In this document: in pieces, positions 30,862 to 59,399 of the stretch
Layout of the letters: each line of letters opens with the position of its first letter
Numbering within the stretch: the stretch's first letter is position 1
Assembly (NCBI GenBank): GCA_040954595.2
Contig: CM082577.2
Location: 13,895,903-13,959,902, forward strand
Direction: 5' to 3'
Length of the DNA: 64,000 nt
Source: Balanoglossus misakiensis
Taxonomy: Eukaryota; Animalia; Hemichordata
Notes under the pieces: model-generated
Told to the model about the DNA's origin: nothing
Database searches by the model: none
The model's input: only the letters and a program-made list of their open reading frames with translations
Made by a program: the position numbers and the translations under genes

Positions 30862-31207
30862 TGTGGGGGTGAATTTATTGAGCAAAGCTCTTTATATCGG
30901 ACTTCCGTGAAACCACGAACTGGTACAGAACAGTACTGCGATGCGTGCGACTCGCAGATTTCCAAAAACAACACTGAACTCGAAATTCCAGAATGTCAGC
31001 TCCAAAAATAGTCCATCGGACGCGGGGAAACCCATGAGCACCGATTGGCTCAAACCGTAGGATTTTGCTACATTTGACGTCAGTTTCACCGGCAATGCAT
31101 AAATTAAAGCTCAACCAAATCCGGTTTTTGCATCAAGCTCAAGCACTAAAAACACGAAACAACATGTAAATCATCAAAGATATTTCCTTTTCCCAAACCT
31201 TACGATA
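30862..31207 (-). repeat. BEL 3' LTR (346 bp)
   Basis: Matches the reassembled 5' LTR (345 bp); about 3 substitutions and 1 indel seen by eye. Confidence 0.95.
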
Positions 31208-31393
31208 TTCTCCGGCGGGCCCAAAGTGAAAATCCGACTGAAAGTCATTTTAATAGGCTAGAGTCAATGTACGAAATCGTCGAATGAATATCGATGGGAA
31301 AAGTTGTCGAAATCTAACACTGAAACAAACACAGCAAAAATATGCGAAAAGTTCTGACACTAATGTTTAATGTCATAGAATCGTCCAGATTGT

Positions 31394-34300: not shown

Positions 34301-37054
34301 CGTAAATATCTCGCTTCAAGTCCGAGGCGGCGGGAATTTCCGTATTAGCTTCTAGCTGCGTCTTTACAACGGCGTTGAGTATGAATGGGCTACAAACCGC
34401 TCCGAATAAAACCGATTTGAACTCAGGAACTGATATGTGACGAATTCACTTTCGGTGTCACTCGCGTTTGAAAGCCACAAGAACTTTGTGAACTTTCTAT
34501 CGTGTGGTTCAAGTCGTATTTGAAGGAATGCCTTCTCGATATCGCTAGCGATTGCGATCGGATTTGCTCTGAAGCGCAGTAGAATGGACGTTAAATCGTT
34601 CAATAACGGTGGCCCTGTTAACAAACAATCGTTCAGGCTTGGAGACGTGTTGTCGCCTTTGCAACTACAATCGTAAACGATACGAATGGGTGTGGTCGCG
34701 GAGTCTTTTTTGACGTGTCTATGCGGCAGGTAGTGACCACCTTCAGGGTTGTTGTTTTCGACGCGTTCAATGAAACCCTGTTTTTCTTGATCAGCGATGA
34801 CTTTATCGTATATAGTTAGAATGTCCGAAGGAAGTCTGCGTATCATTGCGCGTGTTCTATTACTAGCAACACGAAAGTTAGTAGGTAGCGGATCATGGTC
34901 CGGTTTCCATGGTAACTTGGCGACGAAGTGATTGTCCTCGCGACGAAGATGCGTATCTCTATATGCTTCGAATTCGGCTTCTTTGGTGAGCTCGGTGTCG
35001 GTTCGCGATACGTTGTCTTTTATGCCGATGGACTCTAAGTCCCAATATGAAGTTATCGCGTTGTCATTCAAAGTGTCCGTAATGACATGGAATACGTTCG
35101 CAGCAGTAGTAGATTTCCCTTTCAGTTTTGGGCCGGAGAGTAAGTAGCCGAATGGCGAACTAACGGCGGTAGGACCTTGACCGCGGATAATTTCGTTTCC
35201 TACAAAACTCCAGTAATAATCCGCGCCTATGAGAATATCAATATCGTAGCACCCGTCGTTCGAGACAGGGTGGGCCAAACGGAGGCCCTGCAAGTACGGT
35301 AATGTCAGCAGATACGGATCCACATGATTTTTGAGGCCCGCGGAAATTTCGGGAATCAGAAGCGCGTCAATTGGTAATTTGTTACCAGCTATGGTGTGGA
35401 GGTCGAAAGTCCCTTTCTTCATGGAACGCATGCGTGTGTGTTTATTTCCGAAGGCGGCGAGATTGAGCGATTCTGAGCGTGAAATATTGGCGCGAACGCG
35501 ATCGGCGAAACTTTCTGTTACGAATGTACGGTTCGCCCCTTCATCGAAAAGTACTGTGGCGGTGACGACAGTTCCGTTGTTTGCGGAGACTGGGATTTTA
35601 GCAGTTTTCAATAGTACCGGACCGGTCAGTGCACTACTCCCGGATGAGAAGTGCACCTGTGTATTTTCTGACATTGATGAACGTCGTTCGCTGTCATTTG
35701 CAGAATTGTTCACTTTGTGTCCCTTGTTTCGTTCAGTTTGACGGCCACTTTCACTGCGGGACTCGGTTTGCTTTCCGGCTCTATTGTTGCGAACAAAGTC
35801 AGTTTGATGTAGCGAAGTATGATGTTTGCGTTGACAGTGTCTGCACGAGTATTTGGAAATGCATTTTCCGACTACATGTTTTCCCAGACAGTTATAGCAA
35901 AGTTTGTCTCGGCGTACAATCTCCATACGTGACTTAGCATCAGATACAACTGTGCAATCGTTTGGTGAATGAGTTCCTTTGCAGTAGACGCAGGGACGTT
36001 GCTGATTTGGTGACCGAGAAAATCTCTGCCCTCGAGTCGTAGAATTGGAATGAAAGGTGGCGATGGTTGCCGGGTGGCGATGGACATCACTGTCGTTGCC
36101 TACAGATCTGGCCCTTATTTCACATAGGACGGCTTTGCGGAGATCGGGCAAGTCCCAGGGAACTTCTCCGCGAGAACGAGCCAGTATTTGCTGTACCTCT
36201 GTGGGTAGTTTTTCCAGTATCATGGGTATAAGTAGTTTCCCATATGAAGTTTCTTTCTCTCCCAGAGCGTCTAGACCGCGTACGTGGGATTCGTGTGTAT
36301 CGTAGAATTGACGTAGACTTGTTACATCAGCAGTCGGGGTGGGAAGTTCCCACAGAGCTTTCATATGAGCGCTGATGATCGTTTGCGTTTGACCGTATCT
36401 TTCCTTCAAAATTGCTATAGCGTTGGCATAATTTGCCTCGGTAAGTTCAAGTCCTTCAATGGAGCGTACTGCCTCGTCCGTTACGAGACTTCGTAGGTAC
36501 GTGAACTTTTGAACGTTAGAAAGTGAACTGTCCTGATGAACAGATGCGTTGAATGTATCCATGAAGCTTACCCATTTCAGTGTGTTCCCTGCGAAAGTTT
36601 GGAGCTCGAGTTTGGGTAGTTGAACCGTTTTTCGTTGGGCGACGACTGGCCGCGTAGATTCGGCCGTAGAAACAGCTGCGTTTCGAATTGTAGTGAAATC
36701 ATGTTGATGAGTTTCGATAAACTGTCCGATGAGTTCTTTTCTCTCTGAAATTGTAACTTCGTAGTCGCCTGTTTCTTCGACATCTCTATCGGTTTCGGGA
36801 TCTGGAGTGTTGTTGAAAATCTGTTCGTCGATGGCTGCGAGTCGCGAATATCTCGTCAGGACGAGAGCGTAGGTTGCTTTGATTGTAGCGTAGACTTGTG
36901 ACTTATCGGCCTCATCGTTTGAATCGTTGTATTGCGCGATTTCTCCTTCTGCTTTGTTGAAAGCCTTCGTAAGTTGCGATCGGCACACTGTTCTTCGTTT
37001 CTTGAGATCGGGAAGAGGGTTTTGAACCGCTGGTTGTTCGGCGTTGATAGACAT
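31394..37054 (-). pseudogene. BEL/Pao Gag-Pol polyprotein (Gag, Cys-His knuckles, protease, RT, RNase H, integrase), two frameshifts
   Basis: ATG at 37054. Motifs LPKLELQTFAG, CVYC..H..C, CYNCLGKH..C, LFDEGA, RIVYDCS, DIEKAFLQI, YVDD (third frame, 34293-34304), LHVFADAS, PRLEL, GVDFTG, SDNAS, PWYGGFWERL. Frameshifts near 34425 and 34185. Confidence 0.95.
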
Positions 37055-37067
37055 CACGGAATCCGAT

Positions 37068-37085
37068 ATCCTGGTCTCGGCACCA
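37068..37085 (-). other. BEL primer-binding site, tRNA-His-like
   Basis: TGGTGCCGAGACCAGGAT a few bases inside the 5' LTR; one mismatch to the complement of the invertebrate tRNA-His 3' end as I recall it. Confidence 0.7.
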
Positions 37086-37361
37086 AAATAATGTGGGGGT
37101 GAATTTATTGAGCAAAGCTCTTTATATCGGACTTCCGTGAAACCACGAACTGGTACAGAACAGTACTGTACCGTGGCCGAAATCGACACACGGTGTAGGT
37201 TTCAAACCTACACTGTCCCTTTGCTACAAAATGCGCGCGTACGGTGTAGGTTTCAAACCTACACTGTCCCTTTGGTGAAACGAAAAAAGCAAGTGTAGGT
37301 TTCAAGTAGTGTCCACAATGTTGTGATCAATTTACATGAGAACCTTTTAATTTCTGCACAG

Positions 37362-37555
37362 GTGGTTCCAACTGTCTACAGAGATTACCCTGCAATACAG
37401 ATGAATTGGAAGATCATGCAAGTGTACCTAATTATGTGGGAGATTGTCAAATTACTGACTATTTGAATACCATCATGACTGAAGAACTGCCACCTAAAAG
37501 CCCTGCAGAAGCTAAAAGGTTGTATAGGACATTATTGGATATTCTGTTGAACTAA
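37362..37555 (+). pseudogene. Probable last exon of the IS3EU-like transposase
   Basis: Acceptor TTTCTGCACAG; open frame GSNCLQRLP...GDCQITDYLNTIMTEELPPKSPAEAKRLYRTLLDILLN*, resembling C-termini of eukaryotic IS3-like integrase proteins (recall only). Confidence 0.5.
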
Positions 37556-39132
37556 GTGCAACTTTTGACAATGTACAGTACTGCTGAACATGTATTATGT
37601 TTGACTGGCTTACTAATTGAGCATCTTTGAAAGGCATCATTTTTCTGACCATTCATTTCAAAATTCGACCTACATTTTTTGCGACTGATAGATTGTAATT
37701 TTGGGCAAGAACCTGACTAAAATGGCAGCCTGAACATGAACTTTGCAGGCGAGTGTATTTAAAGATATTTTGCCAGCTTTCCATACATAATTTCAGGCAT
37801 GGAAATTCCTGGCGACTGTGACACAACAGATCTTTGTAAATCTGTACACAGACAGAATGCAGAGGGTGTTCTTGTATCTGAACTTTATGGAAAATATAAT
37901 GTAAATATCTGTTGTATTATATAGTTATAGTCATGATGAGTTTATTCATTTGCATTTTGAGTAATAAGTGTAAGAATACAGACACATGAAATTTACTGGT
38001 ACAATGTTCAGAAACACAATTTAGTAATGCACTTAGAACCATTAACTTTGACTACTATAATTTATTGAATACACTTCATCTTTTGCTAATTAAATTCTAC
38101 AACACAACTACAGTGTATGTGACTGTTTATTTCTATTTCTATTTATGCGAGGGACAAAAAATAAGTTTACTCAAGAAAGAAGTTCAGCTTAACAAACTTT
38201 TATGTCATGTTTGGTGTTACATTCAAACAAGCCTTGAGGAAGGCATATAGTTTCTAGATATAGAATAAATTGTCAATAGTAGCAATGTTGGAATGTATCA
38301 CAATGAAAATTGACATGCAAACATAAATGTCATAGGCACTGAACTAAGTAATATCAACTTTAATGACTGAGTGATGGATTTGGACATGGAGAATTTATCA
38401 ATATACGCCTTGCATAAGGTATAGTCCCTGTAGTTACTAGTACCGGTAGTTACTCGAGGCTCAACCTGTTTTTTTTGTGTTTTTTTCTCTTCATTTCATA
38501 GCTTAAGTGGGATATCATTATCAAACTAGTCTTGGTAGCTGCAGTTCAATGAATGTAAACAGCTGGACTACCACTTGAATTATTTTGTAGGCCAAATAGA
38601 CTTTTGAGTAAGTAGTCTGTTGATACGGGACTACTTGCAATTTTGAGCCCTACGTGTACATGAACACAAGTCGTTGAAGATGTAATGTGATATAATGTTA
38701 GCGAATAAGTCCTGTAGCATAGAGTGTGGAAAATGGATTAACCTGTTTACTTTGCCATGGACATTAGTCAAATTTATAACATGTAAACAGTTGTCAAATC
38801 ACAGCCAATCATAATGCATCTTTTCCAGTCTTGTTCATCGAAAAAGTACAGTCCATCTTGGAAACTTGTCATCATCACAGTCAATTAACCAATCAAATAC
38901 CTTCGAATATGTACATGTACCCAGTCCATAAGAAGCAACATGCACTTTGAATGGTTTGTTTCCTAGGATGTACATTGTTAATACTTTAACAAAGGTGGTT
39001 ATAGAAGTTACAAGACAGTAGAAAAGTTGAAATTACAATCATCATCTAAAAGTCTTTTTTCTTTACAAATGTTAACAAGTTCACTGACATACATGTAGTT
39101 CAAGTAACAGCTATGATCAAGTCTGAGCCATC

Positions 39133-39380
39133 TTACACTTGGCCAAAGCCTGCACTGTTAAGAATGCCAAATTCCATAATCTCTTTGAACTTTATGTAGG
39201 ATTTTACAACAGGTATTCTTAGTATGTTTCCACATGTATTTGCAATTGGAAATAGCTTTTCATCAGCTTGAGCCCTACGAAAATCCAAAGTGGGGGATGG
39301 CCTAAATCCAAGTGGAGGTTCCTTGTCCAATCCAGTGGCAAATACTACTATGTCCTTCAATGTCACATCTGCCTCGCCCT
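39133..39380 (-). CDS. Terminal exon of a HECT E3 ubiquitin ligase (G2E3-like C-lobe)
   Basis: Acceptor TTTTTCCATTTGTATAG; LKDIVVFATG..EPPLGF.PSPTLDF...FPIANTCGNILRIP...GFGQV* with the catalytic Cys motif and C-terminal Phe. Confidence 0.85.
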
Positions 39381-39509
39381 CTATACAAATGGAAAAATAG
39401 GGAAATACAGGTGCACTAATTAATATCAGCTTTTTTGAAAGTCATTGGTATACTTTCACACGCAATTTAAAGTATAATAACTATGACTTAATGAGTGATT
39501 GGATCTGCA

Positions 39510-39552
<43 letters not shown>

Positions 39553-39632
39553 ATGTATGTATGTATGTATGTATGTATGTATGTATGTATGTATGTATGT
39601 ATGTATGTATGTATGTGTGTATGTATGTATGC

Positions 39633-39665
<33 letters not shown>

Positions 39666-39676
39666 TGTGTGTATGT
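39510..39676. repeat. (TG)n/(TATG)n microsatellite
   Basis: Direct read. Confidence 0.95.
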
Positions 39677-40339
39677 ACCGGTATGAATGTATTATATTAA
39701 TTATGTCGAGGTTTGCATATATTGAAAATTCGGGCTACAGTCAATCTAGTGATTTTAGTGGATTGAGGCTTTCAACAGTTACAAGCAACCGAACACATAC
39801 TGTTCCTTTACAAGTAAGTACCGTGGACCTCGCCACAAAACAAAAACAAAAACAAAAACAAACCAACAAACAAACAAATAACAAGACAATGTCTACATAT
39901 AACACGCGAAAACATCAAATATCTTTATAATCACTCACCTCCTTACCCAGGCGAGACTCCGTTTACCTGCGGCTGTTCGTTTGTTCGCAAAAACTCATAC
40001 TCCAGTACTGTACTTCCGGTGGACACTACTTGAAACCTACACTTGCTTTTTTCGTTTCACCAAAGGGACAGTGTAGGTTTGAAACCTACACCGTACGCGC
40101 GCATTTTGTAGCAAAGGGCAGTGTAGGTTTGAAACCTACACCGTACGCGCGCATTTTGTAGCAAAGGGACAGTGTAGGTTTGAAACCTACACAGTGTGTC
40201 GATTTCGGCCACGGTAGTACTGCGATGCGTGCGACTCGCAGTTTTCCAAAAACAACACTGAACTCGAAATTCCAGAATGTCAGCTCCAAAAATAGTCCAT
40301 CGGACGCGGGAAACCCATGAGCACCGATTGGCTCAAACC

Positions 40340-40743
40340 TAAAGTAATACTCGCCCTACTGGGGGGAGAATACTACTCGCGGTTAGCACCGGCTGTGTAT
40401 ATATTACCTACACAAAGCAGTCGATGCTGTTACTAACTATGACTAAAGACTTAACTATCTTAAACGCTATATAAAGGTGAGACAGAACTATACGAGAAAG
40501 CTTATAAGGATATTACTTACGTCTTGATCAGTATCAGGTACAATTCGGTCTATCGGATCTCCAGCTCGTCGGAACGGCGTGCTTTCCCCAGGTCCGCCCA
40601 CACTGCTGTTGGCCTCATCCATTGGTGTTGCCCCTGTCAGTCAGATCTCCGTGCTCCGCCTTCCACGGTCCTGGCTGGCTGTCGCCCTGGGCAACCGACT
40701 CCGGCTGCCAGTCATCCGGGGGTCCAAATGTAATTCCACTACA
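40340..40743 (-). repeat. Gypsy 3' LTR
   Basis: Only one substitution seen versus 51367-51770 (AACCGACT vs AACCTACT). Confidence 0.97.
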
Positions 40744-41046
40744 CTCGTCCTTCTTTTCTTTTTGGGAGATCCTCCCTGGGGCTATATGTCGGGTAATGGG
40801 AAGCCTGAAACGGTGGGGTTCCCTGGAAACGTTCGTCGGGCTGGTCCTGAAAATAAAAAGATCTCGGGTGGCTTGCCCGCGGAAGCGGGCACCAGAATAC
40901 TCTCTGATATTAGATTCCAGCCAGGGTGGCCGGATTGGGTTTTGTGGTTGTTTGGCATGTTTTTCCTCCGCCAGAAGCGGACGTTTGGGTAGGTTCTTCC
41001 TCCGTCAGTGACGGATATGTTTTGTTGACGGGTTTGCTTTGTTTCT

Positions 41047-43248
41047 TCAGGCCTGGTACAGACGGCGGGCGTTTTCGGCCGTCTGCGCCAACAGCTGGCG
41101 AGTCGAGGTATCTCGCAGTCTGGCGACCTCTAGTGCGACGTCCCCAAGGAAGGCAGGCGTATTCATACTCTGGGACTCCCACACGCGTCTGCTGGGCGAC
41201 TCGGTCTCCACTAAGATCCGGTCCTCCGGGATAGCCTGCATGGCTTCAATCTGTCGCTCATCAAACTGGCGGACGGCGGCCGAGAACCCAAAATAGGTCT
41301 CGGGGAAGTACCGCCGCCAGTCTCCCACGGTCTCCCTACATCCTCGGAAATCCTGGAGGTGGATCCGCTGGCTCTCGTCGCAGTGCCTGGTCATGGTTAG
41401 TAGTGTCCAGGCTGCCGTGTGTCGGTCATACCTGTCGTTGGAGGTTCCCCGGGCGGTGATGACTACCGGCCTCCTTCCCCGGTTCATAGTCAACAGGTCT
41501 TCGAAGACCCTATCTTGGTCTTCCCAGGTGGAGGGGTCTTCCGTCCGGTCGAGTCCAATGTCCCCTAGTGCGGCCACGTCTGGGCGTCTCAGGAGGTTAC
41601 CGAGGGTCTGGCGTTGATCCTTGGTCAGGTTTGGTGCCACTCGTGGGTTAACTCCCAGGGCTATTGGAAAATCTTGTTCCTCCGGCAGCGGGTCCGGGTA
41701 CCGATCCGGCTCAGAGAATACTTGTAGCCCTCCGAGGAGCCGGATTCGATAGTCTGGAAGGACACCAACATCGAAGTCAGTGAGGTCTTGTGGATTTGTT
41801 GGAGCGTCCTCCACTCTACATGTCTCGGCGCAAGCCTGGGGGTAGAAACATGCGTCTATTCCCCCGGGTATGGATGGGTCCCGGGCTGCTGTTTCGGATG
41901 GCTGTGTCCGGGTTGCTGCAGGTCTCCGGGGCGGCTGGATCCTCCAGAATTCGTCTTGCCGTGCTCGTGATACCCATCTAAGCAGCACGCTCAGCACGCG
42001 CCAGTGGATGAGGATTGCTGGCGTGGTGGGGGGGTTCAGCGGGAACTTGTTGGGTACTTCCCACCCCTGAAACACACATAGACGCTTCATCATAACGATG
42101 CTCTCGGGTGAGCACAGGGATTCCGATGGGATTTTTCCGGGTCCACCCCTACGAATAAACAGATCCAGCAGGTCGGGTATCTCTCTCCCGGGACCACATA
42201 GCCAGTAGGTCAACTTCTCTAAAGCCTCCACCGCGTCCCGCTCGCGGAATACCTGTGGCCTCTCAGCAAACAGTTCGGGAAGATGACGGTGGAATACATG
42301 CTTTTTCAACTTCCGTGTTGACGCCCGGCATCCCGGGAATGGACATGGAGAGGGGCCATACGAGAAGCGTGGACCAGGGGGTGGGGAGTTTTTTCGGGTC
42401 GGCCCGGTGCTCCTCCATCGGTGTTCGGTCTGTCTGGGCGGTTCCGGCGCTGGATACCGGATAGGTGAACGACGCCTGGGGCTGAGGTCTCCCCAGCGCA
42501 AATGGGATGGTCGTTCGCGGGAAGGCGGGCGGTCCCGCCTCTCCTCTCTAGCACGACCCGGTCGAGGCGACCGGGTTGGGGATCTGGACCTAGTGGGGAA
42601 TCCAAGAAATTCCCGGAGATCCGAGGGGATATTGATCTCCCCCATCTCCAACATCTCCTCCGACGTTATAGGTCGGATCGGTAGCTGCAGCGGCAGCGTC
42701 TCATGGCGTGGGGGTGGTGGCTCCTGTAGAAATGGCCTGCTACCTTCTGCTCTTGGGGGTGGTTCTGGCCCCTCCAACACCTCCATTGCCTGGTCTTCGT
42801 CGCCACCAAGCACCTGTCTCTCCTGCTGTGGGTCCGGAAAGATGCTCAGGGTTTCTTCCTGGTCGTCAGCTGCGGTGGTGGTTCTGGGGAGCTCTCGCAT
42901 AGACAGACTGCCGACGAACCCTCCCCGTACTCGGCCTAGGTTGAACTCCCGAGGTACTGTGGTTTTCGGGACGGTGGGGCGACTCCTCATGGCTTCGTCG
43001 GGCGTGGGCAGATGGGTGTTAACCTTCTCCTCCCCGTAGATCCGGATGGCCTCCTCCCGGGTGATGGACATACATCCCACGTCCCCAATCACGGCGGCCA
43101 CCTGAAAGTGCTCGCGGAGCATATCGAACATCGTTGTCTCGTCCACGCCGAGGTCTCTCAACCGGGGGATCACACTGATGGGGTCCAAGAGTTTCCCCTT
43201 GCCACATCTGAAACGGATGTCCTCCAGTTGACGTTGATTTGAATCCAT
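41047..43248 (-). CDS. Gypsy ORF3: Pro/Arg-rich region, C2H2-like finger, C-terminal TatD-fold domain (probably inactive)
   Basis: Intact ORF from ATG 43248. CPFPGC..12..HVFHRH; TatD-like motifs LGVNP, ALGDIGLDRT, RPVVITARG, IHLQDFRG, FGFS, IPEDRILVETESP, NTPAFLGDVA, TAENARRLY. Confidence 0.85.
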   Translation of the reverse strand: MDSNQRQLEDIRFRCGKGKLLDPISVIPRLRDLGVDETTMFDMLREHFQVAAVIGDVGCMSITREEAIRIYGEEKVNTHLPTPDEAMRSRPTVPKTTVPREFNLGRVRGGFVGSLSMRELPRTTTAADDQEETLSIFPDPQQERQVLGGDEDQAMEVLEGPEPPPRAEGSRPFLQEPPPPRHETLPLQLPIRPITSEEMLEMGEINIPSDLREFLGFPTRSRSPTRSPRPGRAREERRDRPPSRERPSHLRWGDLSPRRRSPIRYPAPEPPRQTEHRWRSTGPTRKNSPPPGPRFSYGPSPCPFPGCRASTRKLKKHVFHRHLPELFAERPQVFRERDAVEALEKLTYWLCGPGREIPDLLDLFIRRGGPGKIPSESLCSPESIVMMKRLCVFQGWEVPNKFPLNPPTTPAILIHWRVLSVLLRWVSRARQDEFWRIQPPRRPAATRTQPSETAARDPSIPGGIDACFYPQACAETCRVEDAPTNPQDLTDFDVGVLPDYRIRLLGGLQVFSEPDRYPDPLPEEQDFPIALGVNPRVAPNLTKDQRQTLGNLLRRPDVAALGDIGLDRTEDPSTWEDQDRVFEDLLTMNRGRRPVVITARGTSNDRYDRHTAAWTLLTMTRHCDESQRIHLQDFRGCRETVGDWRRYFPETYFGFSAAVRQFDERQIEAMQAIPEDRILVETESPSRRVWESQSMNTPAFLGDVALEVARLRDTSTRQLLAQTAENARRLYQA

Positions 43249-43249
43249 T

Positions 43250-43293
43250 CTGGGGGGGGGCAAAAAGAAAAGAAAGAAAATTAACGGTTAGTG
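43250..43293 (-). promoter_or_regulatory. Splice acceptor for ORF3 (branch point, polypyrimidine tract, CAG)
   Basis: Minus strand CACTAAC (43293-43287), then a ~30-nt T/C tract, then CAG|A ATG. Confidence 0.75.
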
Positions 43294-43358
43294 GGTCCTC
43301 GTCGGTAACGAGTCATAGTCCTACCCGATGGCAATTTCCCCTTTTTCCCTCTGTTCCC

Positions 43359-46300
43359 CTACTCATCGGTTCCCTCCCCCACGCAGTTCGGACAGTGAAA
43401 GGGGTCTGTCGATTTGACCTGTTTTGGGGAGAGATTGACGCAGGTGCTGTGAAACCAGTCGTAACAGCTGTCACACTGGACCATCAGCTTCCCGGTGTCC
43501 GGCCCACGGCAGACGCAGTATGTCTGCCCCCGGTCTTTGTCCTGCGCGTCAGGATCCCCACCCTTCAAGGGTAGTGACCTCTTGAATTTAACTATCCAGC
43601 TGGGCAGTTGCGCGTCCCTGCACAGCTTCATTCTGTCGTGGTTTGCGGTGGCGATGCGTCTCGGAAATTTCACCCGATACAAGTATGGCGATAGTTTCGC
43701 TATCACTACTCCTGGTCCCTTCCATGGTGGGCTTAGTTTTTTACATTTCCCTCTCACGGTCGCTGAGTCCAGAAGGTAGACGGGGTCTCCGACTTCATAT
43801 GAACTGAGACGTGCCTTCAAGTCGTAATCTCGCTTCATTCTTTCCTGGGTGACATGTAGTTTTTCCCGAGCGAGTTCATGGGCTTCCTTCATGGCGCTTC
43901 CCAAGTTGCTCGCATATTCTTCAGGGTCTTGGGCTGGCGCTGGTTTCCCGAAGACCAGGTCGGCCGGTTGGTTCACTTCCCGCCCCAGCATAAGGCGATT
44001 AGGTGTGAATCCGGTATTTCGGTTTACGGAGGTCCGAATGGCTCCGGCGATTTGGGGTAGGAATTTGTCCCACTCGTTCTGTTTGCCCTGGACGAAACAG
44101 CGAACTGCATCCATGAGGGTCCGGTTTTGCCGTTCCACCTGGCCGTTCGCGGACGGGCGGTACGGCGTGGTCCTAGCCTTGTGTATTTGGAGCAATTCGC
44201 ATACTGACTGGAACAGTTGACTTTCGAAATTACTGCCTCTATCGGTGAATATCTCGAATGGACATCCGAATCGAGAAAAGAATTCCCCCACGGCTGCCGT
44301 AGCGGTCGCCTCTGCCGTTTGGCTAGGTAGTGGAATGCACTCTACCCATTTGGTGAATTGGTCGACCATGACTAGGATGTATTCGTTTTTTCGGGGTGTC
44401 TGGGGCAGTGGTCCAAGGAAATCCAGGTGTACCCTTTCCATTGGCGATCCCACGTGGTACCGGGTCAGGGGGCACCTTGCATACCGCTGTGGTTTCTTGT
44501 GCTTGTTGCAATCGTGGCATGAGGCTACGTAGCTGCGGACATCATCTGCCATCCGAGGCCAGTGGTACTTCATCTGGAGTCTGGCCAGCGTCCGTTGTAC
44601 GCCTTGGTGTCCTGCTGAGGGGATCGCATGGTTCAGTTCAATTACCTCCGGTACCATTGTTCTGGGGATGACCAGTTTCCCTTCGCCCTCGTCCGTGGCT
44701 TTCCTCCGGAGTACTGGCATCTTCGGGTCCACGTAATATATTTCGCGGTTTATCCAGGCATTTTTTGCGGCGGGGCTGAGTAGGGCCAATGTGCTTTCTG
44801 CGGGAGTTTGGCCAGTATCCAGCCATTCCAATATCGGCCGTAGATCGGCATCTTCCCGCTGTCGTCGGTATATGGTGTCCAGGGTTTCCCGCCACGGCGT
44901 CTCGATTTCTGGCGAGCTGCTCCTAGTCACAGTGCATATCTTAGGGTCCGCCTGTGTATCTTCACCGGAGGAGGTGTCCTCTTCCCTGAAGTCTATTCCG
45001 ATTGACTTTAGTATTTCGTTGAAATCGAATCCTTCCCCAGGGTCCTCCGGGGGGTCTGCGAGGTGGTCATTCGCCTCGTCGTCTTCGTTGCCTAGGTTTA
45101 CCGCGCAGACGTCTTGTCTTATGTCTTTGGATGGTTGTGAGGCTAACGGTATTATTTCGTCTACCTTGGTGACGAAGTCTCCCCAATTTCTGTGCGCTCG
45201 TTGGCAATAATCACAGCCGCCGCAGGGAAGTTCGTCCGGCGTAACGTTGTGACAGTAGTGTCGGCACTGCCCCTGCGGTTCGATTCGAGATAGGGCATCA
45301 GCGTTGAGGTGTTTGTTCCCAGGCCTATGCTGAACCGTCATGTTGTACTGGCTAAGTTCCTCCAACCAACGGGCCAATTGTCCTTGGGGTTCTTTAAACC
45401 TCAGCAGCCAGGCCAGACTGCTGTGGTCCGTCCGTATTATGAAATGGTTCCCCAGCAGGTAGTGTCGAAATAACCGGGTAAATCGTACTACCGCTAGGAG
45501 TTCCTTTCGGGTCGTGCAGTACCTTGTTTGTTCAGGTGTTAGTGCGAAGCTGGCGTACGCGATTACTCGCTCCTCTCCATCCTGCACCTGGAGAAGTTCC
45601 GCTCCCACGGCAATGTCTGATGCGTCCGTGTCCAATATGAACGGGTCTTTTGGGTTTGGTAATGTGAGTACCGGCGCTGATGTTAAGCGATCTTTTAACG
45701 CTTCGAAGGCCAGCTGTTGCTCTTCGCCCCACTTGAAAGGCTTTTTTCCCGTAACTGCATACAGCGGGGCGGCCAACTTGGCATGATCCTTTATAAACGA
45801 GCGGTGATAGTTGGCTAAGCCTGCGAAACGTTCCACCTCCTTGGTGTTTTTTGGCGTCGGCCAGTTGCGCACTGCGTCAACGGAACGCGGGTCCAGTCCT
45901 ATTTTTCCTTTACGGACGATCCGCCCCAGGAATTCCACTTCCGTCTGAAACAGTTCACACTTGCGGGGGCGTAGTTTCAACCTGTATTCCCGGATCCGGG
46001 TGAACACGTCCCGCAGATTCTGGAGATGGTCAGCAAAGTCCGCCCCAAGTACCATGATGTCGTCTAAGAATGCAAGTACTACCTCCCATGTCAGCCCACG
46101 CAGCACCAGATTCATGGCTCGCGAGTATGTGGCGGGGGCGTTGCACAGGCCGAAGGGCATGCGGGCGAATTCAAACAGTCCGTACTTTGTGGTAAAGGCG
46201 GTCTTCTTGCGGTCATCTTTGTCCACTTCTATTTGCCAGTACGCTGAATTGGCATCTAGTTTCGAGAACCATTCGTTCCCGGCCAGCGTGTCCATGCAGT

Positions 46301-47882
46301 CCTCTATCAGCGGCAGGGGGAATACGTCTTTACGGGTCACGTTGTTCAGCGCCCGATAGTCGACGCACCAGCGGACGGTCCCGTCCCTTTTCCTTACCAA
46401 TACCGGCGCCGATGCCCATTCCGATGTTGAGGGTTGGATTACCCCTGACCGTAACATTTTCTTGAGATGGGCTTCCTCCTCCCCCGCAAAACGCAGTGGG
46501 GTTCGGCGCATCCTCTGTTTCACTGGTCGTGCATCCCCTGTATCGATACCGTGCGCAAGGGCTGTGAAGTTCCCCAGGTCGTATTCATTTGCAGCAAAGA
46601 CATCCTGGAACTCGATAAGTAGCTCTTTCATTTCCAGTGACTGGTTCTCCGTCAAGTTGGCTGCTGATTTCTCGGCCAACTCCCTCAAGTGATCTGGGAG
46701 CTCGTCTTCGCCATGTGGTGAAGCTTCCGTGAGTAGTTCAACCTCGCTGACTGTGCCTGTGGTGATTTCGATATCTTTGGTTAATGTCCGAAGAAGCTTT
46801 CCCCCGACTGCTGTTGCCACTACTGTTCCCGGCGGTATGGTGACATTGTCATCGGTCGGGTTTATTAAACAGATGATTGGGGGCTGCCCCTTTTTACAGA
46901 ATGTCCGGGGCATAATGACGTCCTCTAGTTTCACTGGCTCCACTATATAGTCGGGCATGTCCATGTCGATTGTCCCTGTCACCCTGGTCACGGAGTTCGG
47001 AGACAGGATAGTGCGAGGAGTGACTGATATGTTAGCCACGTGCGCTACAGCGGTCTGGTCCCCTTGCAGCAACGGGACCCGCTGTTCTCCCACCTGGAGG
47101 GTGTTTTCCCTCATGTCGAGGATGACCTGCTTGGATCGAAGTTGGTCGACTCCCAGCAGCATGGTGTCGCCTATGGGGCCCACATATATATTTTCTCGAA
47201 AGGCAGTGCTCCCTAACTTCAGGTTCACTGGTCCAATTTTGAATCCTCTCATGGACGAGTCTCTTCCGGCTAGTTGTACTTTGACATCGTGTATTATAGG
47301 CGGTTTTGGCTCTAGGGTGTCATACAGCCTGTCGGAAATTATTGTTATTTCTGCGGCCGTGTCTAGGACGGCGAGAACCTCGGTCCCCTCGACTTCTACG
47401 GTGACTTTGTACATTGAACTTGGGGTGATTTTACGGATGGTCACGCTGGGGGGAGCGGTGGTGTCGCTTTGGTGGCTCAGCTCGATAGACATCGCCGGTT
47501 TGGGCAGCTGATCGCCGTCACTGGCTGGCTCGTTCTCCGAGTTTTCGATCAGCACCTCTTCCCGGTTGACGAGATATAACAGCTCCCTCTCTGAGTTCTC
47601 TTCCAGCGCTTCAGTAGTCACTGCCCCGAGTTCCTCAAATTGTCCAAGTTCGCCATCGGTTGCGTCTCCGTCCGAGCCCTCTTCTGATTCGGAATCAGTT
47701 CCCGGTGGACATACCGGGGGTAAGTCGGCATTGTTGGCAGACGGATTACGGCTCCCGGTGGCTCTGTCTATAATGTTCTTTTCGTCTTCCCCCACTGGCT
47801 CCCCATCTGCGTTCCTCATAAGGCCAATTCCGGTGACTTGGGTCGGGCTTAGGCCTCTTTGACCGACCCGTTCCGGTTTAAC
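43359..47882 (-). CDS. pol: Gypsy Pol: protease, RT, RNase H, integrase with C-terminal PHD finger
   Basis: LDTAA, CVDYRALN, LDANSAYWQ, MPFGLCNAP, FLDD, DTDAS, TDHSSL, H..H..CHDC, DFLGP, TDRGSNF, NGQVER; C4HC3 YCVC...CDSCYDWFHSTC...CPNC. The frame stays open up to the slippery site at 47876-47882. Confidence 0.95.
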   Translation of the reverse strand, partial: VKPERVGQRGLSPTQVTGIGLMRNADGEPVGEDEKNIIDRATGSRNPSANNADLPPVCPPGTDSESEEGSDGDATDGELGQFEELGAVTTEALEENSERELLYLVNREEVLIENSENEPASDGDQLPKPAMSIELSHQSDTTAPPSVTIRKITPSSMYKVTVEVEGTEVLAVLDTAAEITIISDRLYDTLEPKPPIIHDVKVQLAGRDSSMRGFKIGPVNLKLGSTAFRENIYVGPIGDTMLLGVDQLRSKQVILDMRENTLQVGEQRVPLLQGDQTAVAHVANISVTPRTILSPNSVTRVTGTIDMDMPDYIVEPVKLEDVIMPRTFCKKGQPPIICLINPTDDNVTIPPGTVVATAVGGKLLRTLTKDIEITTGTVSEVELLTEASPHGEDELPDHLRELAEKSAANLTENQSLEMKELLIEFQDVFAANEYDLGNFTALAHGIDTGDARPVKQRMRRTPLRFAGEEEAHLKKMLRSGVIQPSTSEWASAPVLVRKRDGTVRWCVDYRALNNVTRKDVFPLPLIEDCMDTLAGNEWFSKLDANSAYWQIEVDKDDRKKTAFTTKYGLFEFARMPFGLCNAPATYSRAMNLVLRGLTWEVVLAFLDDIMVLGADFADHLQNLRDVFTRIREYRLKLRPRKCELFQTEVEFLGRIVRKGKIGLDPRSVDAVRNWPTPKNTKEVERFAGLANYHRSFIKDHAKLAAPLYAVTGKKPFKWGEEQQLAFEALKDRLTSAPVLTLPNPKDPFILDTDASDIAVGAELLQVQDGEERVIAYASFALTPEQTRYCTTRKELLAVVRFTRLFRHYLLGNHFIIRTDHSSLAWLLRFKEPQGQLARWLEELSQYNMTVQHRPGNKHLNADALSRIEPQGQCRHYCHNVTPDELPCGGCDYCQRAHRNWGDFVTKVDEIIPLASQPSKDIRQDVCAVNLGNEDDEANDHLADPPEDPGEGFDFNEILKSIGIDFREEDTSSGEDTQADPKICTVTRSSSPEIETPWRETLDTIYRRQREDADLRPILEWLDTGQTPAESTLALLSPAAKNAWINREIYYVDPKMPVLRRKATDEGEGKLVIPRTMVPEVIELNHAIPSAGHQGVQRTLARLQMKYHWPRMADDVRSYVASCHDCNKHKKPQRYARCPLTRYHVGSPMERVHLDFLGPLPQTPRKNEYILVMVDQFTKWVECIPLPSQTAEATATAAVGEFFSRFGCPFEIFTDRGSNFESQLFQSVCELLQIHKARTTPYRPSANGQVERQNRTLMDAVRCFVQGKQNEWDKFLPQIAGAIRTSVNRNTGFTPNRLMLGREVNQPADLVFGKPAPAQDPEEYASNLGSAMKEAHELAREKLHVTQERMKRDYDLKARLSSYEVGDPVYLLDSATVRGKCKKLSPPWKGPGVVIAKLSPYLYRVKFPRRIATANHDRMKLCRDAQLPSWIVKFKRSLPLKGGDPDAQDKDRGQTYCVCRGPDTGKLMVQCDSCYDWFHSTCVNLSPKQVKSTDPFHCPNCVGEGTDE
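47840..47882 (-). promoter_or_regulatory. Putative -1 ribosomal frameshift signal (gag to pol)
   Basis: G TTA AAC in the gag frame, 6-nt spacer, 7-bp stem GGGTCGG/CCGACCC. Pol is in the -1 frame and opens one codon upstream. Confidence 0.75.
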
Positions 47883-50355
47883 TGGTCATTGAAAGACACG
47901 CGTTTCTGTGGGGATTCTGGCTTGGTGTCCGTTGACAGACGCGGACAGTCCTTTTTGAAGTGGCCTTCCTGACCACAGTGGTAACACCCGCGGCTCCTGG
48001 GGGATGGTGATCGGCTGGTTGTACTGGGTCGGTCGCCCCAGTTCATACGAGTTAGCTGATTAGTGAGCATTTCTACAGCAGTGCCCAGTCCGGACATCTG
48101 CGTTTCCACCCGGGCTAGGTGTGACTCCATCCGCGACAGGCGTCTATCCATAACAGGACTGCCCTCACTGGGTCGGACCTTGGGTTCGGTTGAGGGTATG
48201 TCGCGTTTCTGTCGCTGGGGGGTGGATGCTGCCTGTACTCGAGCTATCTCTTCGGCTTCTGAATCTGAACTGATTCGGCGGACTTCGCGTTTTGGTGAGC
48301 GGCCTCCGAATATCTCTTTGTTGTTGTACTGGTACCAGCGTATCTGGTCGATGGCTTTCTCCATGGTTTGGGGGCGCTGTGTGGCTGCATTCAATCCAGC
48401 CTCTCTGTCGGCGCAGCCCTGGCAGACCTTAATGATCGCTTGCCTAATCATCGCTTCCCCATCGCCATCGGGATAAGCTTGTGCTGCCAGGATGAGAACT
48501 CTGCCTGCCCACTCTTCCAGGGATTCTTCTGTGTTTTGTCGGGATTGATTGAACTTCATTTGAGCGGCCTCTGGGAGTTCACAGTACCCAAACCTTTTCT
48601 CCATTTTTCGGATTACCTCTTCGTAGGTGATGTCTTTCCCGGGGCCGGCGAGTGTGGTGTAAAACATACTGGCGCTCCCGTCGAGGCACCAGCACAGTTG
48701 GCTTTTCCGTTCCCGAGAAGTCCAAGCTTGAATATCCGCATATTGCGTGAACTTTGTATAGAACGCCCGCCAATTTCCTCCACCGTTGTATACTAACGTC
48801 TTCGGCAGGTTGACAGACAGTTGACGGGGGACAGGGTGATCTGTTTTCCAGCTTGGGGTGTCGACATGCTTAGGAAGAGTGCCGCCATCGGTGTCGGACG
48901 ATGGAGCGCCCGTCACGCCCCCTGGTCCACTTTGGCGGCGTGTAGACGTGGACGTCGGTGTAGTTGTCACGGCTGAGGCTCCGGTTCGGGCGTCCGGGCT
49001 TCGCGTCCCCAGTGCGGGTCCGGGATCAGACTGATATTGTGGTGCTGCCCCCCGATAGGGTGGTGTGGGGGGGTATAGGGTAGCGACTGTCGGGACTGTG
49101 GCTGCTGCCGGAAGTATGGACCCCAGTTGTACTGGTTGGCGTCCACCTGTTGGTGTTGTTGTGGTTGGGGATAGGCGCCCCAATTGTATCCGCTGACGTC
49201 CAGCTGTTGTTGTTGTTGTTGTTGAGGGTGTGGGCCCCAACGGTACTTGCTGGCGTCTGGTTGTGGTTGCTGGGGTTGTGGCGGATATGAGCCCCAGCTG
49301 TTTTTAACGTCTGTTTCCTTTTGACTCTGGTCATACTGGGTGTGTGTACCATACCAGCTGCCGCCGCCTGGTTCTGGGTACCCTCCCACTTGTTGTTTGG
49401 ACTGTCCCTGGTAGACAGTAGGGGGCTGTGCAGACGGTGTCACTCCACTGGGGTATGGTGTTGATGTGGCACTCCAACCATAGTTTCCGCTGTATGGATG
49501 TCCAGTGGGAGGCCCCCTGGTGGGGTGCATTGGTCCATCCCTGTGGGCGGATGGTGGTGTATCGCTAGGGTGTGGCGTCGAGGTGTGGCTCCACCCATAG
49601 GTACCGTTGACGGGATGTCCAGTGGGGGGCCCCCTGGTGGGGTGCATTGGTCCATCCCTTTGAGCCGACGGTAACGTACATGTATCGCTGGGGTGTGGCG
49701 TCGAGGTGTTGCCCCACCCATAGGTATCGTTGACAGGATGTCCAGTGGGAGGCCCCCTGGTAGGGTGCATTGGTCCCTCCCTTTGAGCCGACGGTAGGGT
49801 ATCGCTGGGGTGTAGGGTCGAGGTGTTGCCCCACCCATAGGTATGCGTTGGTTCATCCCTATTCCCACTGGACTGTGACTCTCCTGGTTTGACGTGATAA
49901 CTCGCGAACGCGCGTCGCGCCCTATCTAGGTCGCTCGGCGAGGCGTAGCGCGGGTCCGCGGCTGTGGGATAGCGTGCGTCTGGGGGGTTGACCTCCATCT
50001 CCTTACCCCCTGTTGCCAGTGGAATTGGACTCTCTAATTCCAAGACCGGCATCCCGTGATAATTCCCACCATAGTTGGTTGCCATGGGCAGAAGTTCAGG
50101 GTTACCCCTTACTCTTGTGTTGTAGTATGAACTGTCCTCATGCAATTCTGCTGGAGTATCTGGGGGAACACTAAAATTCGCCTTTTCAGCGAATTCGGGA
50201 GACCATTTGAAGTAGGGGATTTTCTCCACCATTTCCATGGTGACACTTCCATGTTTTTGCCTGAGAGAGATGATGGCGCTGGCAATCTTTTCCCCCACTC
50301 CTGGTAGATCCCGCAGGGTCTCCTCATCACAACAATTTATGAATACCTGGGCCAT
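47849..50355 (-). CDS. gag: Gypsy Gag (HhH N-terminus, tandem repeats, capsid-like region, CCHC knuckle), split into two frames near 49070
   Basis: ORFs 48967-50355 and 47849-49240 overlap; one extra C in the C7 run at 49067-49073 would join them. Motifs LRDLPGVGEKIASAII, YNGGGNWRAFYTKF, CYHCGQEGHFKKDC. Confidence 0.85.
49450..49845 (-). repeat. Coding tandem repeat in gag, ~114-120-bp unit, ~3.5 copies
   Basis: TYGWGNTSTPHPSDT.PSAQRDGPMHPTRGPPTGHP repeated. Confidence 0.9.
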
Positions 50356-51366
50356 GGTTTTAATTATATGGGGTGCAATAAATTACACACTGGTATACCT
50401 GGTATTCTCTTGGTGTTTTTACAAAGAAAGTTTTTATTAAAAATAATAAGTCAAAGTAAATAATTTCCCTCAGTAACAAAATAAGCAGTGAGTCAATAGG
50501 AAACTAAAATCTATACCTGCAGCGTAAAACAGCTGTAAATAAATGGGCTACTATGGGCTTTTCACTCAATCCTCTAAGAAAAATCCCGTTTTTATGGACC
50601 CTCCTGGGTAGAGACTTCTCCCCGTGAATTTAGTAAAAACCAATATGCAAATTAACTGGAACAATGGGCCCTTGCTGTCTGCGAAGTTTGCTTGAAATTT
50701 ATCCCACTTTATTCGTTACCTTCCTAGGTAGGGAACAAATTCTCCGGCAAACCTCACCGAAAACTCGCTCAGGCAGAATGAAGACAAGAAAATGCTATTT
50801 TGTCCTTCTTAAACTGTGGAAAGGTCTCCCTCACCAACACTTTGATTTCGGACAAACTCAAAATTTCAAGATGGCGGCCGTGAGAAAACACGAGTGGCTG
50901 CCTCGTGACCCCAATTTGCTTTCCCGATTTTCTTGACAGAAAAACACCCTAACTCAGAGCCTAATGTGCCCCGGGCGCGAGTGTGGGTTTTTTCCCCCGG
51001 GTTAAACAAGATAGAGCCCACTGATAGTAAAGTTTGGGGGCGATTACGTTTGCCTAGACCGCCCGGCCCAGACGAAAACAATCGCGACGATTTTTGTAAA
51101 GACACACGCAACAACAAATCGCGACTACGTGCTTCCCTGCACCCTACGCTAAAAATGCTGTCGACGGTCTCTAACAAGAACGCAAGGTTTTTGAAGGCGA
51201 CGAACCCCTTTTACTCCGCTTCCCACGGACGATTTCAGGACCCGCCGACTTCGGAGCAAGCGCTAAAACCTCTGTAAAATCGCTTGGGCCAATTTTCCCA
51301 ACTCCTCCAAAGTTGACAAGATGGCCACGATGCCCCCACGCAAAAATTCGTGAGTCGCAGCGCCAA

Positions 51367-51770
51367 TAAAGTAATACTCGCCCTACTGGGGGGAGAATAC
51401 TACTCGCGGTTAGCACCGGCTGTGTATATATTACCTACACAAAGCAGTCGATGCTGTTACTAACTATGACTAAAGACTTAACTATCTTAAACGCTATATA
51501 AAGGTGAGACAGAACTATACGAGAAAGCTTATAAGGATATTACTTACGTCTTGATCAGTATCAGGTACAATTCGGTCTATCGGATCTCCAGCTCGTCGGA
51601 ACGGCGTGCTTTCCCCAGGTCCGCCCACACTGCTGTTGGCCTCATCCATTGGTGTTGCCCCTGTCAGTCAGATCTCCGTGCTCCGCCTTCCACGGTCCTG
51701 GCTGGCTGTCGCCCTGGGCAACCTACTCCGGCTGCCAGTCATCCGGGGGTCCAAATGTAATTCCACTACA
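51367..51770 (-). repeat. Gypsy 5' LTR
   Basis: Adjacent to the PBS; termini TG...TA in element orientation. Confidence 0.97.
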
Positions 51771-52579
51771 AACCGTAAGATTTTGCTACATTTGACGTCA
51801 GTTTCACCGGCAATGCATAAATTAAAGCTCAACCAAATACGGTTTTTGCATCAAGCTCAAGCACTAAAAACACGAAACAACATGTAAATCATCAAAGATA
51901 TTTCCTTTTCCCAAACCTTACGATAATATACCATGGGACCTTATGGGATCGGTTGCGTCTGTATGTATGTATGGATGTATGTATGTATGGATGGATGGAT
52001 GTATGTCTGTATGTCCGTCCACATCAAAAACTTGAAAACCGCTGCGCGTATGACCTCGATATTTGGTGTGTAGATGAAGGCAGGGCTGTAGATGAGAGTT
52101 TGTTCAAATGAAGTTGTCATTGCCAAAAATATGCAAATTAGCTGGGAAAATGTGAAATTGGTCAAAACTTAAAAACTCAACAACCACTGGTCATATTGAT
52201 TTGAAAATTGGTATGCATGTACCTTATGTCAACCTTATACAGTCCTGTATGTTTTGAGCTAATATTATAGATTTCCTATTTTTTATGCATTTTTTGTATT
52301 TTTCCATGTTATTGGTAAAAAGTCTTCATTTCTGAAAGTGATTTCAAAATATGTTAGGCCGATCAACTCCAACTTTGGTGTGTAGCTAGCCTAGCATTTG
52401 ATAATCATTTTAAGCGAAAAAAAATATATAACAAATCGACCGATTTTTTTATATTAATTTTTTTTTTAATTTATACCTTTACTTATACCTCTATAGTAAA
52501 GCTATGTCCATGTCTTATTGTGGAATTCTGGTCTGTGCAATGGTGCTGTACAGTGACTGGCTATTGGCCAGTGAGCACA

Positions 52580-59045: not shown

Positions 59046-59399
59046 AATGTCCCGTTCATCGAATGTGTCTACACACAATTTAACAACAGCGTCAAACGGC
59101 AGTGTGTCCATTTTGTTCAGTACGAAGCAGAGTAGTTCATTGATTACTACATTACCATCAGAATTAGCCGACTCGTACAAGGACTGCTGTGTGCCAGAAC
59201 TGTCCAAAGCATGTCGCTTGTTCACACCGCTAGAACTTGAGTCGTAACACATGTCCACACCGCCATTGTCCACCAACACTTCGGCGCCCACCACTCGATC
59301 AGGATGAAATCGCTTTTTGTTGCATGACGGACATAAATCCAAATCGCCCTGACATCCACGGACACCTTGGGTTGTACCACAATCATTACACTGCAGCAT
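59046..59399 (-). pseudogene. LINE ORF1 N-terminal remnant
   Basis: CNDC...CPSC and NELLCFVLNKMD...FDERDIE, fused directly to the endonuclease motif THDICLLQEHWL. Confidence 0.7.

What the first reader, a model, noticed from the sequence alone, without database searches (positions are those of the whole stretch)
43246..43293. Retrovirus-style splice acceptor directly in front of ORF3
Seen: consensus branch point CACTAAC, a ~30-nt pyrimidine tract and CAG one base before the ORF3 ATG, ~110 nt after the pol stop. Known: env genes of retroviruses and errantiviruses are expressed from spliced subgenomic RNA. Inference: the TatD-like ORF is a dedicated accessory gene, not passive cargo. Candidate donors on the minus strand are CAG|GTATAG (~50516), G|GTGAGG (~50757, ~50835) and GTAAGTA in the LTR (~51547).
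Basis: partly seen in the sequence, partly recalled or inferred. Interest (0 to 1): 0.8.

Follow-up and report, generated by a model that had tools for sequence, protein, structure and literature searches.

The report
Conserved splice signal for retrotransposon TatD
A young jumping gene of the Gypsy type carries a strong splice-acceptor signal right before its third gene, and most distant relatives have one in the same place, so this TatD nuclease-like gene is likely made from its own spliced message and kept as a true accessory gene, although this copy lacks the enzyme's usual metal-binding residues.

Summary
On the minus strand, CACTAAC (43293-43287), a 29-nt pyrimidine tract and CAG (43252-43250) lie one base before the ORF3 ATG of a young Ty3/Gypsy element (LTRs differ at 1 of 404 bases). 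It is the best acceptor-like site of 683 in the element. Of 19 non-redundant relatives, 12 have a pyrimidine-rich YAG within 12 nt of the ORF3 ATG; shuffles give 1.7 and gag ATGs 0 of 8. The AG-to-ATG gap takes all three phases, so ORF3 uses its own start. In relatives a donor motif lies inside the LTR, upstream of the primer site (combined p 8e-4). That favours 51547 here, but this site alone is not significant (p 0.55). No RNA was available, so splicing is inferred. ORF3 joins an unmatched zinc-finger-like domain to a TatD fold. Six metal-site columns are intact in 106 of 132 homologues and in none here, yet listed differences between copies are mostly synonymous (22 of 32). Spliced third ORFs are known; I found no paper on TatD in this slot. 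This scan noted the same clade earlier in a sea urchin.

The parts
43287..43293 (-). Branch-point-like motif CACTAAC (putative branch A at 43288)
   Evidence: A sibling contig with 21 differences over 43272-43479 has none in 43272-43301
43253..43280 (-). Polypyrimidine tract, free of AG
   Evidence: One contig has a C run two bases shorter with the AG and ATG unchanged
43250..43252 (-). CAG, inferred 3' splice site; the exon would begin at 43249
   Evidence: same position in 12 of 19 relatives
41047..43248 (-). ORF3, 733 aa: N-terminal helical domain, Arg/Pro/Ser-rich linker, zinc-finger-like middle domain, TatD fold
41929..42354 (-). Middle domain (C-C-H-H plus a P-x-N-S-P-A-x-L-x-H-W-R family motif), confidently modelled, no structural match found
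   Evidence: Present in 106 of 151 homologues; pLDDT 95.5; no Foldseek match at E up to 0.001 in BFVD or PDB
41050..41865 (-). TatD domain with 0 of 6 metal-site columns conserved
   Evidence: Pfam PF01026 E 3e-23; Foldseek to TatD/YcfH E 5e-13; residues
43359..47885 (-). pol: protease, reverse transcriptase, RNase H, integrase, C-terminal PHD finger
47849..49303 (-). gag, capsid and zinc-knuckle part (second of two overlapping frames in this copy)
48967..50355 (-). gag, N-terminal part with a helix-hairpin-helix motif; one continuous frame with the capsid part in relatives
51367..51770 (-). 5' LTR, 404 nt, TG...TA ends, flanked by a 4-nt target duplication GGTT
51542..51550 (-). Best candidate donor GAC|GTAAGT (intron would start at 51547, 8298 nt long); inferred from relatives
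51354..51365 (-). Primer-binding-site-like TGGCGCTGCGA, shared with L015, L039, L089 and L104
40744..40763 (-). Polypurine tract before the 3' LTR
40340..40743 (-). 3' LTR, one mismatch to the 5' LTR

Best explanation
The site is likely a working 3' splice site through which this Gypsy element makes a separate message for its third gene, a TatD-fold accessory protein. Shown: the signal, its place one base before the ORF3 start codon, the same placement in most relatives, and protein-level conservation of ORF3. Inferred: a transcript starting in the 5' LTR is spliced from a donor inside the LTR (best candidate 51547) to 43249, removing the primer site, gag and pol, so that the ORF3 ATG becomes the first start codon and the short message cannot be reverse transcribed; unspliced RNA serves as genome and as gag-pol message. 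Least certain (about 0.3): intact family members would act as two-metal 3'-5' exonucleases or AP endonucleases on the element's own reverse-transcription intermediates, and this copy's version would be a non-catalytic nucleic-acid-binding protein.
For: Strongest acceptor-like site in the element and window. 12 of 19 non-redundant relatives pass a fixed rule against a shuffled mean of 1.7 and a maximum of 6 in 1000 shuffles; 0 of 8 gag ATGs pass; 50 of 987 other ATGs pass. Relatives are only 62-72% identical to this element in RT-RNase H. The AG-to-ATG gap is 1 nt in 9 of 20 elements and 0, 2, 4, 5 or 10 nt in 6 others, so no reading frame is carried across the joint. Donor motifs lie 133-241 nt into the LTR, upstream of the primer site, in 6 relatives; here at 224; combined p 8e-4. 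No ATG on the sense strand in 1287 nt before gag, against a shuffled mean of 13.7. 22 of 32 listed ORF3 differences are synonymous against 34% expected. Third ORFs of LTR elements are typically made from spliced messages (PMC5408684 and PMC12992720, passages read).
Against: No spliced RNA was seen. 7 of 19 relatives fail the rule (L015, L017, L030, L044, L066, L068, L071). A branch-like YTRAY occurs in only 5 of the 12 passing relatives. The pyrimidine threshold was chosen after four values were viewed. This element's own LTR donor is no better than shuffles (p 0.55); only 3 of 7 LTRs are significant alone, the matrix is recalled, and the LTRs were delimited by hand. Three ATGs lie in the LTR upstream of 51547 and the start site is unknown. 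The ATG-poor leader is not general (L091 30 against 34 expected; L089 18 against 26). This copy's gag is split and its TatD sites are lost, so its signal could be an inherited relic.
Confidence: 0.82

Rival explanations
1. The acceptor is real but is joined to a donor in the leader, gag or pol, for example 50719, 50516 or GAG|GTAATT at 44645, possibly making a Gag- or Pol-ORF3 fusion.
For: Several internal sites score as well as or better than 51547 on the recalled matrix. Insect errantiviruses splice env from varied upstream exons, some within gag (PMC12992720 passage); Cer1 CERV shares exons with gag (PMC10309623 passages).
Against: The AG-to-ATG gap takes all three phases across relatives and each ORF3 has its own ATG, which argues against a fusion. 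No donor above the cut-off was found between the primer site and gag in L015, or at the start of gag in any of the relatives scanned. A non-coding leader donor remains possible for this copy.
Confidence: 0.1
2. The acceptor receives a spliced leader in trans, releasing ORF3 from a polycistronic transcript.
For: An unpaired acceptor just before an ATG is what trans-splicing uses (established knowledge). The host is not known, and this element's donor is weak.
Against: Named ORF3 homologues come from a hemichordate and three molluscs. A 2013 review says most of a list of phyla that includes molluscs and echinoderms have never been proven to trans-splice (PMC3795323 passage). Relatives carry cis donor motifs in the LTR.
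Confidence: 0.04
3. The tract is not a splice signal but one arm of a hairpin or a translation re-initiation signal, and ORF3 is read from full-length RNA or from an internal promoter.
For: The purine run after the pol stop is predicted to pair with the tract in a stem of about 26 pairs, -37 kcal/mol; the tract is 91% paired in a wider fold.
Against: The fold is no more stable than shuffles (z -0.81). A sibling contig has changes on the purine side without partners changing. This reading does not explain a CAG fixed 0-5 nt before the ATG in distant relatives.
Confidence: 0.04

Closest known systems
Spliced env message of insect errantiviruses (gypsy, ZAM, springer, idefix subclades; PMC12992720, passages read)
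   Same: Third ORF after pol, reached through a splice acceptor, in a Ty3/Gypsy element.
   Different: ORF3 here is not an envelope protein. It has its own ATG right after the acceptor, whereas those env exons receive their start from the upstream exon.
DEDDy exonuclease and GDSL esterase ORF3s of bdelloid rotifer Juno and Vesta elements (PMC5408684, passages read)
   Same: A captured enzyme, including a 3'-5' exonuclease, in the env position of an LTR retrotransposon.
   Different: A different nuclease fold (TatD barrel), fused to two further family-specific domains, found across several animal phyla, with repeated loss of catalytic residues. TatD occurs 0 times in that paper.
Foamy virus major splice donor in the LTR R region (PMC3694450, abstract and passages read)
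   Same: A donor motif inside the LTR, hence present in both LTRs and upstream of the primer site.
   Different: An analogy only. R was not mapped here, no AATAAA or ATTAAA is present in any of 7 LTRs, and use of the donor is not shown.
CERV of C. elegans Cer1 (PMC10309623, passages read)
   Same: A non-envelope accessory protein from a spliced message of a Gypsy element, with acceptors conserved between species.
   Different: CERV is a five-exon product sharing frames with gag and has no reported TatD domain; no homology was tested here.
Group II (HxH) TatD nucleases: YcfH, YjjV, TATDN2, TATDN3 (PMC10085689, passages read; PDB 1yix, 2gzx)
   Same: Fold and sequence family; the best solved relative by profile is E. 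coli YcfH, E 3.9e-36. HxH and four further site columns are intact in most homologues.
   Different: All six columns differ in this copy (C, Y, D, T, Q, E in place of H, H, E, H, H, D).

Membership tests
Ty3/Gypsy LTR retrotransposon | Two direct LTRs with a target-site duplication | tested here: met
   404-nt LTRs, 1 mismatch, GGTT on both flanks
Ty3/Gypsy LTR retrotransposon | pol order protease, RT, RNase H, integrase | tested here: met
   Pfam
Ty3/Gypsy LTR retrotransposon | Primer-binding site and polypurine tract next to the LTRs | tested here: met
   the priming tRNA was not identified
Ty3/Gypsy LTR retrotransposon | Placement in a named clade by RT phylogeny | not tested
   No named reference RTs were available; one search returned unnamed or generically named relatives
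U2-type 3' splice site | Branch motif, pyrimidine tract, YAG, no AG between | tested here: met
U2-type 3' splice site | Same position in relatives beyond chance | tested here: met
   12 of 19 against a shuffled mean of 1.7
U2-type 3' splice site | Used in RNA | not testable with these tools
   No RNA holder listed
Errantivirus or env-bearing element | ORF3 encodes an envelope fusion glycoprotein | tested here: not met
   Only TatD is matched in Pfam; residues 290-733 model as soluble domains; no dedicated membrane-helix predictor was run
Group II TatD nuclease | TatD barrel fold | tested here: met
Group II TatD nuclease | HxH motif and metal-site E, H, H, D | tested here: not met
   0 of 6 here; 6 of 6 in 106 of 132 homologues that cover all columns and in 13 of 15 ORF3s from loci. 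The role of the non-HxH columns is partly recalled
Group II TatD nuclease | Nuclease activity | not testable with these tools
   Needs an assay
Foamy-type donor in the LTR R region | Donor between the transcription start and the poly(A) site, inside the LTR | tested here: inconclusive
   Donor motifs lie in the LTR but start and poly(A) sites are unmapped

The most novel reading that the evidence does not exclude
An old clade of animal Gypsy elements, spread over hemichordates, molluscs and probably echinoderms and brachiopods, keeps a dedicated three-domain TatD accessory gene expressed by a foamy-virus-like splice from a donor inside the LTR. Several lineages, this one among them, have turned the nuclease into a catalytically dead binding protein that is still under selection and serves the element, for example by shielding its cDNA or helping unspliced RNA leave the nucleus. 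The middle domain is a new fold.
Probability: 0.3. Interest if true: 0.72.

Novelty: new variant of a known kind. Interest (0 to 1): 0.52.

Why it matters
A splice acceptor before a third ORF is ordinary for LTR elements. What it marks here is not: a widespread non-envelope accessory gene built on a DNA-repair-type nuclease, with its own conserved expression signal. It gives exact, cheap predictions (an LTR-to-ORF3 junction in oyster, scallop, abalone or acorn-worm RNA) and a natural series of active-looking and dead enzymes with which to ask what retrotransposons use nucleases for. It also matters for annotation: these genes are listed as uncharacterised host proteins, or as bacterial TatD when the DNA sits in symbiont genome bins.

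Tried and rejected
Whole genome: none is held for this window, so copies were seen only through contigs of two DNA runs of one sample. RNA: no RNA holder listed; this is no evidence either way. DNA contigs showed no joint ending at the acceptor. IMG/VR: nothing related; an alignment-based scan chose generic TatD words and returned 11 loci at 22-30% identity, taken as ordinary TatD genes and not used. Empty-site join 40333 to 51769 in run X2: it confirms the element's ends but was rejected as proof of an insertion polymorphism, because both flanks match a second copy of a repeat at 30932-31222. Hairpin over the spacer: not significant and not covarying. Short intron from CGG|GTAGGA at 43324: it lies after the pol stop, so it cannot fuse pol to ORF3. 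Middle domain: no Foldseek match; nearest Atlas clusters are unnamed, score 0.90-0.91; the wider structural search could not be run. Literature: TatD with retrotransposon and gypsy, 1 paper; TatD with LTR retrotransposon, 2 papers; none of the three concerns such elements by title or abstract. Searches listed 25 of 212 and 30 of 353 papers with no relevant TatD hit among those listed. TatD occurs 0 times in the main texts of PMC5408684, PMC13524379 and PMC8220671. Repbase reports, subscription papers and supplements were not seen and may describe the family.

Full report
The element. The finding lies in an 11.4-kb Ty3/Gypsy retrotransposon on the minus strand, 51770 to 40340. Its 404-nt LTRs differ at one base and are flanked by GGTT on both sides, so the insertion is young. 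Pfam gives a helix-hairpin-helix motif, capsid and zinc knuckle for gag; protease, RT, RNase H, integrase and a PHD finger for pol; and TatD for ORF3. Here gag is split over two overlapping frames; in relatives it is one frame. Contigs of two DNA runs from one sample cover the whole element with many variant letters, which points to a multi-copy family.

The signal. CACTAAC, a 29-nt tract with 28 pyrimidines, CAG, one A and the ORF3 ATG are at the stated coordinates, 110 nt after the pol stop. It ranks first of 683 YAG sites in the element and is the only one of 3592 in the window with both a tract of at least 27 of 30 pyrimidines and a strong branch motif. A sibling contig spanning 43272-43479 differs at 21 places, none in 43272-43301, which holds the branch motif and the start of the tract. 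Contigs end where copies share a 31-letter word, so this shows a 30-nt identical stretch and is weak support only.

Relatives. The C-terminal 444 residues of ORF3 match 126 protein clusters at E up to 1e-30. Of 20 looked up by name, five came from animals: Ptychodera, Ostrea, Argopecten and Haliotis entries, counting cluster members; others were unnamed or labelled as bacterial TatD. I did not see the DNA around those named genes. Pol relatives are named from Lingula, Pinctada, Lytechinus, Elysia and Ostrea. A degenerate DNA pattern for the family's middle-domain motif returned 101 loci. 33 were confirmed by tblastn, and L071 was added for its integrase match. Wherever the contig is long enough, pol lies just upstream. 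These are metagenome and genome-bin contigs, most likely animal DNA (inference). 22 loci show both the pol end and the ORF3 start. I dropped L056, L073 and L031 as 92-99.9% identical to others, leaving 19. RT-RNase H identity to this element is 62-72% in the 7 compared.

Conservation of the acceptor. Rule: take the first ATG after the pol stop that opens at least 50 codons, and ask for YAG within 12 nt upstream with at least 10 pyrimidines in the 15 nt before it. 12 of 19 relatives pass; dinucleotide shuffles of the same 60 nt give a mean of 1.7 and a maximum of 6 in 1000; 0 of 8 gag ATGs pass. Among other ATGs 50 of 987 pass. The threshold was picked after viewing several; before removing duplicates, the counts were 15 of 23 against 95 of 987 at 9, and 7 of 23 against 19 of 987 at 11. 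Of the 7 failures, L015 has CCAG|G-ATG with a weak tract, L017 has AAG after a tract, L030 and L044 have a stop inside the PHD finger and look decayed, L068 has its TTTTCAG about 220 nt upstream, and in L066 and L071 an acceptor-plus-ATG is visible further downstream than the ATG the rule chose (by eye). The gap from AG to ATG is 1 nt in 9 of 20 elements and 0, 2, 4, 5 or 10 nt in six, covering all three phases, so the upstream exon adds no codons. The branch motif is less conserved: 5 of the 12 passing relatives.

The donor. In six relatives with a complete LTR and primer site, the best donor motif in the LTR lies 133-241 nt from its start: AAG|GTAAGA, CAG|GTGAGC, TAG|GTGAGT, AAG|GTAGGA, TTG|GTAAGA, ATT|GTAAGT; L039, close to L015, adds AAG|GTAAGA. 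This element has GAC|GTAAGT at 224 (window 51547). The combined p against shuffles is 8e-4, but only three LTRs are significant alone, this one is not (0.55), the matrix is recalled and the LTRs were delimited by hand. Such a donor would remove the primer site from the spliced message. Foamy viruses have their major donor in the LTR R region (PMC3694450, abstract and passages); this is an analogy. The 1287 nt from LTR position 129 to the gag ATG hold no sense-strand ATG against 13.7 expected, which suits a scanned leader and a start site downstream of the three LTR ATGs; two of five relatives do not show this.

The protein. ORF3 has an alignable N-terminal domain, a low-complexity linker, a middle domain with C-C-H-H and an HWR motif present in 106 of 151 homologues, and a TatD barrel. 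The middle domain models at pLDDT 95.5 with no Foldseek match in BFVD or PDB. The family is closest to group II TatD (YcfH; HxH defined in PMC10085689, passages). All six metal-site columns are intact in 106 of 132 homologues that cover them and at most two are intact in 15; this copy has none. Of 32 differences that searches listed inside ORF3, 22 are synonymous, 23 are at third positions and none makes a stop (p 6e-5 against a transition-only expectation). Those calls print only the best-supported rows (40 of 661 and 40 of 55), so this is a subset, and whether all copies in this organism share the dead site is not known.

How it likely works. Shown: signal, position, conservation, protein family. 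Inferred: cis-splicing from the LTR yields a message of at most about 3.1 kb with ORF3 as first reading frame, while unspliced RNA serves gag, pol and packaging. Speculative: nuclease action on reverse-transcription intermediates in intact members and binding without catalysis here. Rivals are an internal donor, trans-splicing and a non-splicing hairpin (predicted but z -0.81).

What is known. Spliced ORF3 messages are standard (PMC12992720, PMC5408684, PMC10309623; passages read). A DEDDy exonuclease ORF3 in rotifers is the nearest functional precedent. My searches found no paper on TatD in LTR elements; Repbase reports, subscription papers and supplements were not seen. Earlier unchecked notes of this scan describe the same clade and acceptor in a sea urchin, and dead TatD ORF3s in a flatworm; they are not counted as evidence. 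Verdict: a real, conserved acceptor of a known kind marking an apparently undescribed accessory gene; splicing probability about 0.9, the LTR donor clearly less; interest 0.52.

Noticed in passing
window 30861-37201 (-), 37169-40216, 40216-40316, 51769-51940: A BEL/Pao element (DUF1759, Peptidase_A17, DUF5641). Its upstream terminal repeat appears to be interrupted first by a 3-kb piece with 100-nt inverted ends and then by the Gypsy element, since the pieces match 30861-31222: nested insertions.
   Followed up: partly
window 10963-12594 (-): 543-codon frame with DUF3504 and tyrosine recombinase matches, Crypton-like by recall, with inverted repeats near 10449-10617.
   Followed up: no
window 56311-60106 (-): A reverse transcriptase frame of 907 codons without LTR-type domains, with smaller frames upstream; probably a non-LTR element.
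   Followed up: no
window 17250-21066: Nested inverted repeats (arms 18471-18913 and 19585-20024, 86-96% complementary), MITE- or foldback-like.
   Followed up: no
window 50355-50240 (-); L068, L084, L091: Gag begins with a helix-hairpin-helix DNA-binding motif, also matched in relatives; together with the PHD finger on integrase it marks the clade.
   Followed up: partly
window 49448-49843: Three copies of a repeat of about 120 nt inside gag.
   Followed up: no
window 43359-43254 (-): The purine run after the pol stop is predicted to pair with the pyrimidine tract and could damp the acceptor; not significant against shuffles and not supported by a sibling's changes.
   Followed up: yes
window 51642-50356 (-): 1287 nt without an ATG on the sense strand, against 15 on the other strand.
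   Followed up: partly
L084, L089, L090, L091, L098, L104: Complete or partial elements of this clade sit in Sedimenticola genome bins, and one ORF3 is annotated as a bacterial TatD hydrolase (P0015): probably host DNA in the bins.
   Followed up: partly
L017:6900-7501: A more distant relative without the PHD finger still has ORF3, with CTAAC, a pyrimidine tract and AAG directly before the ATG.
   Followed up: partly
window 47885-47849 (-); L015, L068, L084: TTAAAC in the gag-pol overlap (TTTAAAC in three of seven relatives), a likely frameshift site.
   Followed up: no
P0177, P0012: Their annotated N-termini read YFLLAGK-M and MFYFADN-M, as if a pyrimidine tract and GCAG before the true ATG had been translated; a hint only, DNA not seen.
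   Followed up: no
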